64,000 nucleotides of DNA, taken from NCBI GenBank assembly GCA_038207335.1, contig JBBQZX010000018.1:1-64000 (forward strand), read 5' to 3'. The position numbers were made by a program. The DNA comes from Chthoniobacterales bacterium. GTDB lineage: Bacteria > Verrucomicrobiota > Verrucomicrobiia > Chthoniobacterales > Chthoniobacteraceae. Positions 42,001 through 48,000 of the stretch are shown here, one piece after another (the first letter of the stretch is position 1; each line of letters opens with the position of its first letter).

Positions 42001-45000
42001 CGGCGGCAGTCTCGGCGATACGCGTGCCGATGACCGCGGTGCCGTCGTCGAGCGTGACGGTGTAGGCGGCGGCATCGGGATTGATGGCGGCGCTGGGGTC
42101 GGAGATGTCGCGGAGGACGCTGGCGTAGTCGCGGAAGGAGAGGTTGCTGAGGTCGGGGCCGACCTGGACGCCGTCGCCGCGCAGTTTGTGGCAGGTGGCG
42201 CAGGCGGCTTTGCCTTTGAAGAGGGCGTGGCCGGCCTCCCAATCGCCGCCGTTGATCTCGGGGTGCGCGAGGCGCTGCTCGCCGGGCAGCGCGGCGGTGG
42301 CGAATGGCACGAGGAAGCGCCGGGTGCCGAGTGCGCGCGGACGCGGATCGCGGCTGGTGTGAAACGAGACATCGACCGTGCTCACAGGCGTGGTGACGGT
42401 CGCGGTGAAGGGCAGATATTTTCCCTCGCCGGCGGGCGTGAGCGTGAAGCTCGCCTCGTGCGCGCCGAGCTGCTCGATCTTCACGCCGGGGGCGTAAAGT
42501 TTCAGCGCGGCGTCGCTTTTAAAGACGACGGTGACGACCTCGGGCTCGGGCGTGTAGCCGAGATCGGAGCCGGGCTGGGTGACGGGGATGAGCATTTTCC
42601 AAAGGTCGACCTGGCCGCGGAGCGTGAGGGTGCCGGGTGTGGCGACTTGCTTCCAGAAGGCGGCGTGCGCCACGCTGCCTCGGGTGAATGCGCGGGCGGC
42701 GATGAAGTCGGCGTGAGGCAGCCAGAGCTTGTTCGCGGCGTCCGCACGCTCGCCGCGCCACTCGGCCTCGACGCCGCTGAGATCGTGCATGAGATCGAGC
42801 GCGCCGCCGGGCTGACGGATGGTGAGGGCGTAATTCACCGCAGATACGCGCGGGGCGGTTTCGAGGACGACGCTGCGCCGGTCTTCGCTGAGGCGCGCGC
42901 TTTTCACGGCGACTGCGCCGGGCTTGTCGCGCTGCTGCATCTGCACGACGACGTATCCGGGCCGGATCGCCTCCAGTCGATCGGCGGCATCCACCCAGCG
43001 GCCATCGGCGATGCTGGTGCGCGCGGCGATGTCGCTCCACGCTGAGGGATCAAGCGGGCGGTCGAATGCGACGACAGTCTCCGTATCGCTCGCGGGCCAT
43101 GTGAGCACGGGCTGCGGCGCGTCTTTGCCGGTGTAGCTGATTTTGAAAAGACGCCCGGCGCCCTTTGGCCCATTGCCCCAGTCGGGTCCGCCGGTGTGGC
43201 AGCTCACGAGTAAGTCGCCCTGCGGCGAGATCGCGCAATCGACGGCGAGCAATCCCATGCGAGCAAAGAGATCAGTTTTTGCGACGTAGCCGGCGGCGGT
43301 TTTCGCGAGCTTCGTGCGCCACAGTTTGCCGCGCGATTCGCCCGTGATGATCGCATTTTCACCCCAAAACTCCGGGCCGAAAACCGCGCGTCCCGGCGCA
43401 GGACCGTTGAACCGGAAGCCGCAGGTGCTCTCGTGCTGCGGCATGTAATCCCAGACGCTCGGCTCATCGACCACGTCCGGCAAAAACTGCGGATGACGCG
43501 GCGGAAATCCGTAGTGCCTGCCGGGCTGGATGTGCAGGAGTTCGTCGAAAGGATTGCCATTCGGGCACCACGTCGCGCCCTCCTGGTCGGTGCCGAAAAG
43601 GTCGCCGAGTTTGTTGAATTGGAGCGCCATGACGTATCGGAGGCCGCTCGCGAGTTGCTCGATTTTCCCATCCGGCGCGATGCGCAGCAAGCAGCCGTGG
43701 CGCTTGTCAGGCGAGTAGTGCGGCGTGCCAACGGGGCCACTCGCGGCGCGCCCCTTTTCCACCGTGCCGTCGTGCCAGTAGGGATTGCTGTATCCGGCGT
43801 TGCCCATTGTTACGTAAATCGACCCATCCGGCGCGAGCGCGAGCGCGAGCGCGCTGTCCACGCGACGGTGATTGAGATACGGCAGCTTCTCGAGCGCGGG
43901 ATTGGCGAAGCCTTTCACGACGGTGACGCGTGTGTCCGGCACGCCATCGCCGTCCGTGTCGGAAAAACGCACGACTTCATCCGCGAGCACAGCGTATAGG
44001 ACGCCGTCTTTCACCGCCATGCCGAGCGGATAGTCGGCGCTTTCTGCGGGTGAGAAAGTGATGACTTTGTCCTCGAGCCCGTCGCCATCGGTGTCGCGCA
44101 GGAGATGGAATCGCCCGTCGTATCCGCCCGCTAAAAGCCGACCATCGGCGGCGTATTCGATGTTGTTCAGGCTCGTGATTTTCACCGGCAGCTCGCGCAC
44201 GGTGAATCCCGGCACGAGCATCTGCAGCGCGCCGTCTTTTGAAGGCGGGAACGGGGGCTCCGGCTGCTTGTCCGGCGTCGGCGGGATGGGCGGCTCCGCG
44301 GCAAACGCGGCGGTGGCGACGAGCGCGAAAAGAAGGGCGTGGGATTGCATTGAGCGGGAGGATTTCAGCGCGAAGGCGCGCGAAATCTCACAACCCGTGC
44401 GCGGAAAAACGAGCGCGCAATTTTCTCCGCAAATCGAAACAAGCCCCGCGGCTCAGCCGGGGATTTCGCGGAGCATCTGCTCGTTGGTCGGGAATTTTTT
44501 CGCGAAGAAGATGAGGCGCTCGATGGCTTCCATCGGCTTGTAGCCGGAGAGGCCGCGGCGGACGACGTGGATTTTGTGCAGGTCGTCGGCGGGGACGAGG
44601 AGTTCCTCGCGGCGCGTGCCGGAGAGGAAGATATCGACTGCGGGATAGATGCGCTGCTCGGAGATGCGACGGTCGAGGACGAGCTCCATGTTTCCCGTGC
44701 CCTTGAATTCCTGGAAGATGACGTCGTCCATGCGGCTGTTCGTCTCGATGAGCGCGGTGGCCATGATCGTGAGCGAGCCAGCCTCCTCGGTGTTGCGCGC
44801 GGCGGCGAAAATCTTGCGCGGGATTTCCAACGCGCGGGTGTCGAGACCGCCGGACATGGTGCGCCCGCCGGTGGCGGCGTTGTTGAAGGCGCGGCCGACT
44901 CGCGTAATCGAGTCGAGCAGGATGAAGACGTCCTTGCCGGCCTCGACGAGGCGCTTCGCCCGCTCCATGCAGAGCGTCGCGATGCGTGTGTGAGATTTCA

Positions 45001-48000
45001 CATCCATGTCGTTCGAGCTCGCCATGATCTCGGCGTGCGGACAGGTGCGCTTGAAGTCTGTGACTTCCTCGGGCCGCTCATCGACGAGCAAAATGATGAG
45101 CTTCAGCTCGGGGTGATTTTTCGCCACCGCTGCGGCCATGTGCTGCAGCAGCGTGGTCTTGCCGGTGCGCGGCGGCGCGACGATGAGGCCGCGCTGGCCT
45201 TTGCCGATGGGCGTCATCAGGTCGATGATGCGCGTGGTGTAACGCTCCGGCACGGTCTCGAGGCGGATGCGCTCGAGCGGGCTGATGACTGTGAGTTCGT
45301 CGAACGCCGGGAGGTTGCGCGCCTTCTCGGGCTCGTCGCCATTGATCTCGAGGATGCGATGGAGTTGGGAACCCCGGTTGCTTTTGCGCGTCTCGCCTTT
45401 CAGCCACTGGCCATCGCGCAAGTGGTATCGGCGCACGAGTTCGGGCGTTACGAAAATATCGCTGGGATGCTGGCTGAAGCCGCGCTTGGCATCGCGGATG
45501 AAGCCGAAGCCCTTGCCGGAAATCTCGACGATCCCCTCGCCGCTGCCGAGTTCTTCATCGGGTGAAAGCGGGTCAGTGATCCCCATGTCGGTGCGCTCCT
45601 CGGACTCGAAGCGCTCCGGCCGGTCGCCCCGCTGGCCGCGGTCGTGGCGGTCATTGCGTCCGCGCCGATCGTGGCGGTCACCGCGCTGCTGGTCGTCGCG
45701 AGGCTCGCGCGGTTCGCGCTGCGGGCGCGGCGCGGAGGGCTCGGCGACGGGAATTTGCATCTCGGCCGCCTGGCTCGCAGTCACGGCGAGAGGCGCTTCT
45801 TTCCCCTCCTGCTCCATCTGCTTAGCGACATGCCTCGGGACATAAACCGGATACTGCCGCGGCGCAGGCGCAGCAGACGGCGGCTCCGCAACGGGCGCGG
45901 AAGCGGCAGCCAGCGGCTCCGCGACGGGCTCCGTCACGCGTGCCGGAGGCTCGGGAACCGGCTCTGGCACAGATTTCGCAGATGGCCGCCACTCCTCGAC
46001 ATGACCGCTGTTTCCCGGAGCATTCACGCCGGAAGCGTGTCCGCTGTAGCCAGGATCGCCGCTCCCGGCCGCCCGCGTTTCAGCGCGCGCCGGGCTCGCA
46101 ATCTGCGCTTTTCCCTCCGCCGACGGGACAGGTGACTCTACTCTCGGCACCGGCGTTTCTGCCGCGGGAGCGATCCCTTTTTCCCCGGCCGGCACAGCCG
46201 CCTTCGCCGACTTCGCTGTTTCCGCAGCAGCATCGGCGGGCGCGGCATCGGCCACCTTTTTCTTGCGCGACGCACGCGGCTTCGCGGGAGCTTTTGCAGC
46301 AGTCGGCTTTTCGCCGTCCTGTTCCGCGGCTGGCTTTGCTTTCGCTCGCGATGCGCGGGGCTTGGCGGCTTTTTTCGGTGGTACAGCCGGTTCTTCGGTG
46401 TCGAACAACGGCTGCTGTGCGGGCTCTGTCATAGTGGGCATGTGGGATTGTCGGACCGGCGCCTTTTGCCGGAGAAAAATTGGGGATGAATGGGTGGCTG
46501 CGATTCAGCCGGGAAGCGGGGAAATGGAAACGGGCCTCGCGGAATCCGCGACATCACTGCGATTACCACAGGGTATCGGACTGCCGCGGACGCCAGCGGG
46601 ATTTTCGGGCATCCGCAAGTCGGCTGGGTATTCCGACCGTGGATGCACTTCGCCTCGTTTCGGGTCGAGGCGGGCCCTTGAGAAGGTGTAACGTGGGATC
46701 ACTTCGCGCGACCCGCGATGAATACAGACTTTGATTCGGTGAAGGATGGAGATTCGCGACAGCCTTCCGGCTAGGAAACGAGGAAGTTTTGCGAGAAAGT
46801 TTGCCCGAGCGGGCGAAGCACCAGTGCCGCTAAACTGCTGAGAAAGTGGAGGGATTCCGCGCAGGCGTCAACAGGGATTTTTAAATCCTTCTGACGCGGG
46901 GGCATGCGCCAAATTCCCTTTCGGCGAGCACGTATCTCATCACCGACCTAAAACTGAATGCCGCAAACGGAGGCACCGCCGCGCACGACTTTACGCGCCG
47001 TACGAACTTTCCACCCGCTTCGCCACATCCATGTATCCGTAATCCACCTCGTAGATTTGCTTCATCGCCTCGAGCGACTCCTCTTTTTTACCCATCCGCT
47101 CATAGACGAGCCCGAGCTTGTAAACGATCTCCTTCTTGATCGAGTCCATGGCCAGAATCTCGCTCGCCGCATCCTTGAGCTGCTTCACCGCGAGATCGAG
47201 CATCCCCTTTTCGGTGTAGCACTGGCCGAGCAAATTCATCGCTTTCAGACGCGCATTCGGATTCTGCCGCGCGCGCTGGAGCTCCGAGATCGCCTCGGTG
47301 TATTCGCCCGCTGCCACGAGCTGTTCGCCGAGCTCGTAACGAAGCTGCAAATCGGTCGGATTCCGCTCCACCCGTTTGCGCGCTTCGCTGATGAGCAACC
47401 CGGCTTTTTGCCTTTTAAGTTCCGCGAGATTCTCCTGCGCCTGCACTGCCTCGTCGGTGTCACCGTACTCTGCGAGCCACGCCTCAAATGCACGGATTTC
47501 CCCGTCGAGCTTCTTCATTTGAAGATCGGAAAGTCTGCGCGCCACCGCCGGGTCGCTGCCGCTCACGATCTCATTCGTGTGGGCATAAAAATAGATCGCC
47601 CCCGCGACACTCTCCTCATCCTCCTCGATCTCATAACGATCCTCCCACAACTTCGCGAGCCGCCGCGAAATATCGGAATTCTGCTGGTTCGCCTCGAACT
47701 CCGGCGTCAGCTCCGCAATCTGCTCGTTGATCATCTCGGTGCTCTTCACCACGCGATTCTTTTGCTCGAGCATCACCGCCTCCTCCTTGTTTTTGATCAA
47801 GGAGCGATAGTCCAGTTTTCCACCCGAGTCCGCCACCTGCTCCCATCCGCCGGATTTCATCGTCGCACGTGCCGACGCGTCCTTGCTCTTTTTGATCGCC
47901 GCAAGGTCCGCCGGATTCAGTTCCGCGATTTTTGAAAAGACCGCGACCGCCTTGTCCGCATCGCCGATCGAGTTCAGGTAATCGCCGAGTTCGTGCATCG

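What a model noticed while it worked through the whole genome (the two positions that open the first line are those of the whole stretch)
44453..46432. Two full-length Rho termination factors, kept together across Verrucomicrobiia
The genome encodes two complete Rho proteins: g02535 (C18:44453-46432, 659 aa) with the canonical GFGF RNA-binding motif behind a ~290-residue disordered, Ala/Pro/Lys/Arg-rich N-terminal extension, and g00048 (C1:66206-67552, 448 aa) in which that motif reads GGAF; the pair is found in three quarters of sampled genomes of the class, even in 0.9-Mb endosymbiont-size genomes. I read this as an old duplication with a division of labour: two Rho hexamers (or mixed ones) with different RNA-loading specificity, both indispensable. 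New would be a bacterial class that runs transcription termination with two non-redundant Rho factors, a natural system to dissect how Rho picks its targets.
Evidence so far: Both pass the NCBIfam equivalog NF006886 (515.5 and 462.4 bits, cut 315) and carry Rho_RNA_bind + ATP-synt_ab. They are 49% identical over 362 residues; P-loop APPRTGKT, Walker B LLVDERPEEVTDF and the loops SGG..KPKK / SGG..IPRK are kept in both; primary-site motif GKGFGFIR in g02535 vs GQGGAFLR in g00048. Six-frame search with g00048 at E<=1e-40 in 120 other Verrucomicrobiia genomes: all 120 have Rho; 90 have two hits, 1 has three, 29 have one; 14 of 14 genomes of the same order have two, among them two 0.9-Mb genomes; single-copy genomes cluster in a few families (f13 10 of 10, f80 5 of 5, f86 3 of 3). 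The two genes are unlinked (C1 beside coaE/rnd and the Amuc_1098-1102-type pilus genes; [...]
(Added by a program. Inside this text positions count along the whole contig: contig position 1 is position 1 of the stretch shown here. "Call 12" and the like, gene names such as g00115 and contig names such as C1 are that model's own, and its searches are not shown. The text may have been shortened before it was handed on; [...] marks where a part breaks off. The agent that wrote the report below was given it as the finding of a first reader that could run no searches.)

Follow-up and report, generated by a model that had tools for sequence, protein, structure and literature searches.

The report
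Two co-evolving Rho termination factors
Many Verrucomicrobia carry two different genes for the transcription terminator Rho, which was already published, but in this lineage (including Akkermansia relatives) each copy has lost part of its RNA-grabbing surface and the two change together at the RNA-tracking loop, suggesting they may build one mixed ring.

Summary
Both genes are real and the pair is class-wide (114 two, 3 three, 33 one hit in 150 genomes). The duplication, its age and the hetero-hexamer idea are in print (Moreira 2024, PMC11347177, listing Akkermansia). Corrections: the window copy (RhoB) lacks the N-terminal helical bundle (Type 2d/Group B); 'GGAF' occurs in 1 of 270 RhoA, so it is one state of an eroded motif; RhoB is dispensable in 12 families. 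Not found in my searches: (i) RhoA, the coaE-linked orthologue, has an eroded RNA-binding domain only where RhoB is kept (68 of 68; intact RhoA lacks RhoB in 30 of 73), with at least two origins; (ii) RhoB carries F232N (183 of 183) and E333Q (179 of 183) with all catalytic residues intact; (iii) over 146 genome pairs, Q-loop position 284 switched to the same residue on the same branch in both paralogues 6-7 times versus 0.4 expected, without gene conversion. Best reading: mixed RhoA/RhoB rings in Chthoniobacterales/Verrucomicrobiales (about 0.5); separate specialised rings remain open. Other scan notes report second, truncated Rho factors in other phyla, not this pair.

The parts
44453..46432 (-). 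rhoB CDS, 659 aa: Rho without N-terminal helical bundle, long disordered N-terminal region (Type 2d / Group B of Moreira 2024). Its partner rhoA (448 aa) lies outside the window at G000:C1:66206-67552 (+), directly behind coaE
45548..46432 (-). N-terminal low-complexity region, aa 1-295 (Ala 19%, Pro 15%, Glu 11%, Arg 9%); Lys-rich patch aa 19-60, Arg/Asp-rich patch aa 240-275; disorder inferred from composition
45782..45859 (-). Conserved short motif inside the tail (RQYPVYVPRHVAKQ...APLAV, aa 192-217), kept in the 9 close relatives printed
45326..45538 (-). RNA-binding OB domain (PF07497, 58 bits), with RNP2 Y80 read as F and the RNP3 loop shortened (E108 deleted)
45494..45517 (-). RNP1 motif GKGFGFIR; canonical RNP1 kept in 143 of 150 RhoB but 27 of 154 RhoA of the Chthoniobacterales/Verrucomicrobiales group
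45155..45178 (-). P-loop APPRTGKT
45062..45082 (-). DERPEEV (catalytic Glu and Arg valve; roles recalled)
45011..45013 (-). RhoB signature Asn at E. coli position 232 (N in 183 of 183 RhoB, F in 270 of 270 RhoA and 8 of 8 outgroups)
44846..44863 (-). Q-loop tip RTMSGG (E. coli 283-288); T at 284 (44858-44860) is the site that changes in step with RhoA; RhoA of this genome has the same RTMSGG
44711..44713 (-). RhoB signature Gln at E. coli position 333 (Q in 179 of 183 RhoB, E in 270 of 270 RhoA)
44612..44614 (-). Arginine finger (E. coli R366; role recalled), invariant in both paralogues

Best explanation
RhoA is the ancestral, vertically inherited Rho (behind coaE). RhoB is an old second paralogue without the helical bundle, with fixed changes at 232 and 333 and a shortened RNP3 loop; where RhoA is canonical, RhoB is an accessory that can be lost. 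In the ancestor of this genome's order and its sister order (Chthoniobacterales and, by my inference, Verrucomicrobiales), RhoA's bundle and primary RNA site eroded, its Q-loop took on RhoB's sequence, and RhoB gained a long disordered tail. The two then became mutually dependent and most likely co-assemble into mixed hexamers: RhoB subunits supply most primary RNA capture (RNP1 plus basic tail), both supply ATP turnover, and adjacent Q-loops in the channel must stay matched, which is why position 284 changes in step. Shown: distribution, motif states, selection, coupled substitutions. Inferred: co-assembly, which subunit loads RNA, essentiality.
For: Erosion of RhoA only with RhoB present: 68 of 68 vs 43 of 73 for intact RhoA among 141 of 150 genomes whose RhoA I retrieved; clean score gap 73 vs 93 bits; RBD dN/dS 0.13 vs 0.04-0.06 while ATPase stays 0.05. 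Co-retention: 21 of 21 own order, 61 of 61 in the order of G059, 45 of 46, 30 of 31, 25 of 25 and 39 of 41 in family/genus draws (these overlap). RhoA Q-loop K-I-L in 82 of 91 intact-group RhoA but B-like R283/T284/M285 in family-weighted 0.98/0.67/1.0 of 44 eroded ones, while RhoA keeps its own F232/E333. Position 284: same branch, same new residue in both paralogues 6-7 times vs 0.36-0.41 expected; 9 of 14 RhoB changes land on RhoA's residue vs 2.0 expected; family-wise p<=0.0013 under a branch-weighted null; 0 of 8,841 count-matched non-homologous site pairs reach this. Not conversion: Ser284 is TCN in RhoA and AGY in RhoB in the 4 genomes printed, and synonymous identity is no higher than at other motifs. 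In E. coli Rho, V284 engages the 2'-OH of incoming RNA (PMC4132721, passage) and K283 sits in pockets formed partly by neighbouring Q-loops in the closed ring (PMC11018626 section 11).
Against: No direct binding data. The genes are unlinked. The 284 signal was first seen by eye; in 46 pairs added later only 3 new RhoB changes arose, 2 landing on RhoA's residue and 1 not; RhoA changed 24 times, 17-18 of them alone. Because 284 touches RNA, separate rings facing the same transcripts or inhibitor could drift in parallel. Erosion has only 2-3 independent origins and loss of RhoB perhaps 2-4, so 68 of 68 is not 68 tests. In the Opitutales-like families both copies lack RNP1 (0 of 20, 0 of 9) and their Q-loops differ. 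RhoB's RBD evolves as fast as eroded RhoA's over the whole group (dN/dS 0.12 vs 0.13), and 16 of 154 RhoA there still keep all three motifs. Two fragmented MAGs of the group gave RhoA only (G289, G350) and two RhoB only (G303, G343). E. coli PBS mutants F62S/Y80C are viable and terminate with NusG (PMC4150792 passages), so an eroded RhoA may work alone.
Confidence: 0.5

Rival explanations
1. Two separate homo-hexamers share the work: RhoB loads on RNA through RNP1 and its basic tail (possibly in condensates), RhoA with a weak primary site acts through NusG- or RNA-polymerase-assisted loading. Parallel change at 284 reflects shared substrates or a shared inhibitor.
For: Both motors complete and under equal purifying selection; PBS-defective E. 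coli Rho works with NusG; paralogue-specific fixed residues 232 and 333 never mix (0 of 270 RhoA with N232 or Q333); unlinked genes; one canonical NusG in the genome.
Against: Does not by itself predict that RhoA's Q-loop converged on RhoB's when its primary site eroded, nor that coupling is confined to the Q-loop window (283-292: 32-33 co-changes vs 14-15.5 expected, all other windows p>=0.015 uncorrected).
Confidence: 0.33
2. RhoB is a conditional or regulatory subunit (stress-induced, phase-separating) that tunes or dampens RhoA rings; RhoA erosion is relaxed selection tolerated by NusG.
For: RhoB is lost in 30 of 73 genomes with intact RhoA; variable tail length (RBD start 2-375 in this group); disordered insertions drive phase separation in other Rho factors (review PMC12360218 section 4).
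Against: Kept in both 0.9-Mb genomes with lower dN than RhoA (RBD 0.029 vs 0.098); all catalytic residues invariant in 183 of 183.
Confidence: 0.12
3. Plain redundancy or dosage: two interchangeable Rho factors.
For: Both pass the Rho equivalog.
Against: 50% identity, fixed diagnostic residues, opposite states of RNP1 (own order: RhoA 0 of 22, RhoB 20 of 21 canonical); among 33 single-hit genomes the lone copy is RhoA in 30 and RhoB in 3 draft assemblies.
Confidence: 0.05

Closest known systems
Group A / Group B Rho pairs (D'Heygere et al. 2013, not seen, cited through Moreira; Moreira et al. NAR 2024, PMC11347177: sections 25, 27, 31, supplementary text part 26, Table S2 rows seen; figures S6-S8 not visible)
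   Same: Two rho genes in PVC genomes (30 of 116 multi-copy genomes), second copy without N-terminal domain (Type 2d or 4), catalytic residues kept, ancient duplication and hetero-hexamers proposed; Akkermansia (two species), Coraliomargarita and Nibricoccus listed with two, Methylacidiphilum with one; many Planctomycetes rows show the same 2a + 2d pairing.
   Different: The paper describes the N-domain-bearing copy as 'very conserved' and supposes it complements the short copy; here, in this order and its sister, that copy is the eroded one and the N-domain-less copy keeps RNP1 and has the longer tail. In the text I read there is no F232N/E333Q signature, no link between erosion and retention, and no Q-loop coupling.
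E. coli Rho (homo-hexamer; PDB 1PV4 and others)
   Same: Fold, P-loop, catalytic Glu, Arg valve and finger, R-loop; 48-50% identity over the core.
   Different: Single gene; RhoA here lacks F62 and basic character of the bundle, RhoB lacks the bundle, E108 and has N232/Q333.
Actinobacterial short Rho (NCBIfam NF041509 paralog_Rho2)
   Same: [quoted passage not shown]
   Different: Scores 398.9 and 390.4 vs cut-off 628; a Streptomyces short Rho keeps F232/E333.
Rho with disordered insertions (Bacteroides, Mycobacterium; from review PMC12360218 section 4)
   Same: Long low-complexity region in front of the RNA-binding domain.
   Different: Those are single-copy and keep the helical bundle.

Membership tests
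Transcription termination factor Rho | NCBIfam equivalog NF006886 above cut-off 315 | tested here: met
   462.4 (window) and 515.5 (C1); TIGR00767 cut-off missed by both
Transcription termination factor Rho | Intact P-loop, catalytic Glu/Arg valve, Walker B Asp, Arg finger | tested here: met
   K184, T185, E211, R212, D265, S266, R269, R272, E334, K336, G337, R366 invariant in 270 RhoA and 183 RhoB; D210 is N in 7 RhoA; residue roles recalled
Transcription termination factor Rho | RNA-dependent ATPase, hexamer formation, termination activity | not testable with these tools
   needs biochemistry
Typical full-length Rho (Type 1/2a, Group A) | N-terminal three-helix bundle in front of the RNA-binding domain | tested here: not met
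   Window copy: no Rho_N hit, profile match starts at 46, own HMM 0 bits. C1 copy: diverged bundle, aligns to E. coli 4-47, 9 bits, three helices in a low-confidence model
Typical full-length Rho (Type 1/2a, Group A) | Canonical RNP1/RNP2/RNP3 | tested here: not met
   Window copy keeps RNP1, has lost RNP3 (0 of 183 RhoB with E[RK][YF]); C1 copy has lost F62
Type 2d / Group B Rho (Moreira 2024) | No detectable N-terminal domain, RNA-binding domain after residue 25, functional ATPase motifs | tested here: met
   RBD starts at aa 299
Type 2d / Group B Rho (Moreira 2024) | Falls in the published Group B cluster #3 with Planctomycetes second copies | not tested
   No Planctomycetes sequences or the authors' HMMs were in hand; all verrucomicrobial RhoB form one clade 100/99
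NF041509 short paralogue Rho2 | Score above 628 | tested here: not met
   398.9
Class-specific duplication | RhoA and RhoB form one clade to the exclusion of other phyla | tested here: inconclusive
   Free tree puts RhoB outside RhoA + E. coli/Sinorhizobium/Parabacteroides (97/95) but the AU test does not reject one clade (p 0.59); RhoB also occurs in 2 of 67 genomes of other classes

The most novel reading that the evidence does not exclude
Chthoniobacterales and Verrucomicrobiales, including Akkermansia, terminate transcription with an obligate hetero-hexameric Rho in which two catalytically intact but individually incomplete subunits alternate, one giving RNA capture and the other the helical-bundle/polymerase side, with Q-loops co-adapted across the interface - a Rho that took the first step F1-ATPase and MCM took from homo- to hetero-ring.
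Probability: 0.35. Interest if true: 0.85.

Novelty: new variant of a known kind. Interest (0 to 1): 0.56.

Why it matters
All Rho factors described in the papers I read act as homo-hexamers, and a hetero-hexamer has only been floated as a possibility. This lineage gives a concrete, cultivable test case (Akkermansia has both genes per Moreira Table S2), names the residues to watch (232, 284, 333, RNP1) and predicts which lineages depend on both copies. A natural mixed ring would let one assign primary RNA capture, ring closure and RNA hand-off to particular subunits, and would show how a housekeeping motor becomes locked into two-gene dependence, even in 0.9-Mb genomes.

Tried and rejected
Structure prediction of the RhoA core with the RhoB core gave no verdict (score 0.24, mark 0.32) and is not used either way. 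No RNA holder was listed for the window gene. Single-sequence AlphaFold model of RhoA was poor (pLDDT 38.6); only its N-terminal helices are mentioned. Hidden paralogy for eroded RhoA (a FastTree with one outgroup joined it to RhoB) was rejected: the mixture-model tree with 9 outgroups keeps all RhoA apart from RhoB and coaE lies directly upstream of RhoA in 36 families, eroded and intact, including other classes. Gene conversion at the Q-loop rejected. Overall within-genome excess identity between paralogues: none (0.448 vs 0.452), so coupling is local. Site 162 reached family-wise p 0.028 in one reconstruction and 0.61 in the other; site 285 0.064 and 0.038: not claimed. ESM Atlas search added nothing beyond Rho. 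Searches for roles of F232/E333 and for Akkermansia essentiality data found no paper. Rows dropped: one truncated RhoA (G094) and proteins under 300 aa; 9 of 150 genomes without a retrieved RhoA; Q-loop insertion columns 274-282 excluded from the coupling test and 274-296 from its tree; 23 families left out of the tree.
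Full report
Observation. The window holds rho at 44453-46432 (-), 659 aa; a second rho lies at C1:66206-67552. The two are 49.6% identical over 361 aa and there is no third. The closest named relatives of the window copy are Chthoniobacterales/Spartobacteria. I call the C1 copy RhoA and the window copy RhoB. RhoB is not full-length in the structural sense: the profile match starts at position 46 and no RhoB scored has the N-terminal helical bundle. In its place is a 295-residue Ala/Pro-rich region with a basic patch, an Arg/Asp-rich patch and a short conserved motif.

Distribution. In 150 other genomes of the class, all have Rho: 114 two hits, 3 three, 33 one; 21 of 21 of the same order have at least two, among them two 0.9-Mb genomes. 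Of the 33 single-hit genomes 30 keep RhoA and 3 draft assemblies RhoB. In other classes of the phylum 63 of 67 have one hit, 2 have an A+B pair, one looks like a gene split over contigs and one has none. In the order of G059, 61 of 61 have both.

What is already in print. Moreira et al. 2024 (PMC11347177; I read sections 25, 27, 31, passages, supplementary text part 26 and Table S2 rows; figures not visible) found two or more rho genes in 116 genomes, 30 of them PVC, called the second copy Group B (Type 2d or 4, no N-terminal domain), inferred ancient duplication and raised hetero-hexamers. Table S2 lists two functional Rho for both Akkermansia species, Coraliomargarita and Nibricoccus, one for Methylacidiphilum, and 2a + 2d pairs in many Planctomycetes. 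D'Heygere 2013 I did not see. So the headline is known. Ten library searches found nothing on the points below; subscription papers and figures S6-S8 could hold part of them.

Which copy is which. coaE sits directly upstream of RhoA in 36 families, including other classes: RhoA is the vertical orthologue. RhoB follows yebC/pmpR in 8 families of this order and its sister, though not in this genome. An IQ-TREE mixture-model tree of the ATPase domain (86 rows) gives one RhoB clade (100/99) apart from all RhoA; whether the split is older than the phylum is open (AU p 0.59). RhoB has fixed marks: N at E. coli position 232 (183 of 183; F in 270 of 270 RhoA and 8 of 8 outgroups), Q at 333 (179 of 183; E in all RhoA), loss of E108. 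All catalytic residues are invariant in both, apart from D210N in 7 RhoA, and ATPase dN/dS is about 0.05 in both (0.10 in 3 Opitutales-like RhoA pairs): two working motors.

Erosion of RhoA. With an HMM built from single-copy RhoA, RhoA's RNA-binding domain falls into two groups with a gap (at most 73 vs at least 93 bits in the first 160; later-added RhoA of the sister order reach 86). Among the 141 of 150 genomes whose RhoA I retrieved, eroded RhoA always has RhoB (68 of 68) and intact RhoA lacks it in 30 of 73. The helical bundle erodes along with it. The eroded domain is relaxed, not dead (dN/dS 0.13 vs 0.04-0.06). Limits: erosion has two or three independent origins; in Opitutales-like families both copies lack RNP1; two fragmented MAGs of the eroded group showed RhoA only and two RhoB only. 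F62 and Y80 as primary-site residues come from PMC4150792 and PMC11018626 (passages); F64, R66, D78 and E108-Y110 are recalled.

Coupled Q-loops. Intact RhoA reads K-I-L at 283-285 in 82 of 91; in the eroded Chthoniobacterales/Verrucomicrobiales group it became RhoB-like (R 0.98, T 0.67, M 1.0, family-weighted over 44) while keeping F232/E333. I then noticed by eye that later changes matched within genomes and tested this by parsimony on a tree built without the Q-loop. With 100 pairs, position 284 changed on the same branch to the same residue in both paralogues 6 times against 0.3-0.4 expected, and only the 283-292 window stood out. With 146 pairs: 6-7 against 0.4; 9 of 14 RhoB changes land on RhoA's current residue against 2.0; family-wise p<=0.0013. 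As a data-based control, 0 of 8,841 count-matched non-homologous site pairs reached that level, which bounds the chance over about 270 homologous sites near 3%. The 46 added pairs gave 3 new RhoB changes, 2 matching and 1 not; RhoA changed 24 times, mostly alone, so RhoB tends to follow RhoA. Conversion is excluded by TCN vs AGY serine codons and ordinary synonymous identity. In E. coli Rho V284 engages the 2'-OH of the incoming nucleotide (PMC4132721, passage) and K283 packs into neighbouring Q-loops in the closed ring (PMC11018626, section 11).

Mechanism. Most likely (about 0.5) the two proteins form mixed rings in this lineage: RhoB gives primary RNA capture, both hydrolyse ATP, and Q-loops that line one channel stay matched. 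Second (0.33), two separate rings share the work, RhoA leaning on NusG as primary-site mutants of E. coli do, and 284 tracks a shared substrate. A regulatory RhoB (0.12) and redundancy (0.05) fit worse. Co-assembly, loading roles and essentiality are inferred, not shown.

Verdict. Real; the duplication and the hetero-hexamer idea are published; the reversed polarity of decay, the RhoB signature and the coupled RNA-tracking residue appear to be new and turn that idea into a pointed experiment. New variant of a known kind; interest 0.56.

Noticed in passing
window:45782-45859 and about 45980-45997 (-); L143-L146, L148, L150, L151, L204, L205: Short conserved motifs (EEW.PS-like and RQYPVYVPRHVAKQ..APLAV) sit inside the otherwise unalignable RhoB tail of Chthoniobacteraceae-like relatives; candidate partner-binding motifs.
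   Followed up: partly
L346, L349, L355, L358, L343: RhoA in several genera of families f76/f77 carries Gly/Arg-rich insertions just before the Q-loop tip (E. coli 274-282), i.e. in the central channel.
   Followed up: no
L093, L094, L097-L101, L108, L111-L115 and L280-L297 group: In Opitutales-like families both Rho copies lack canonical RNP1; RhoA has a long N-terminal extension (median RBD start 274) and RhoB is short (34), the reverse of this order.
   Followed up: partly
L093 (G054:C21) and L094 (G097:C1): In family f25 rhoA and rhoB lie only 8-13 kb apart in these two genomes (42-55 kb in G079, G133, G139), on opposite strands.
   Followed up: no
L319, L324: Two RhoB have E instead of the signature Q at 333; 7 RhoA have D210N.
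   Followed up: no
G000:C11:134779-135168 (L588): A second, distant NusG-family protein (42 bits, below cut-off) besides the canonical nusG on C15; possibly an RfaH/UpxY-like antiterminator.
   Followed up: no
window:46991-48478 (-) and 46442-46990: A TPR-repeat protein gene lies upstream of rhoB on the same strand, with a 550-bp gap; yebC, the usual upstream neighbour of rhoB in the order, is not there.
   Followed up: no
window:41834-44350 (-): PVC-type heme-binding CxxCH protein directly downstream of rhoB.
   Followed up: no
L142 (G203, other class): A single-copy RhoA with a partly degenerate primary site (4 of 8 scored residues), the one exception among 46 single-copy RhoA.
   Followed up: no
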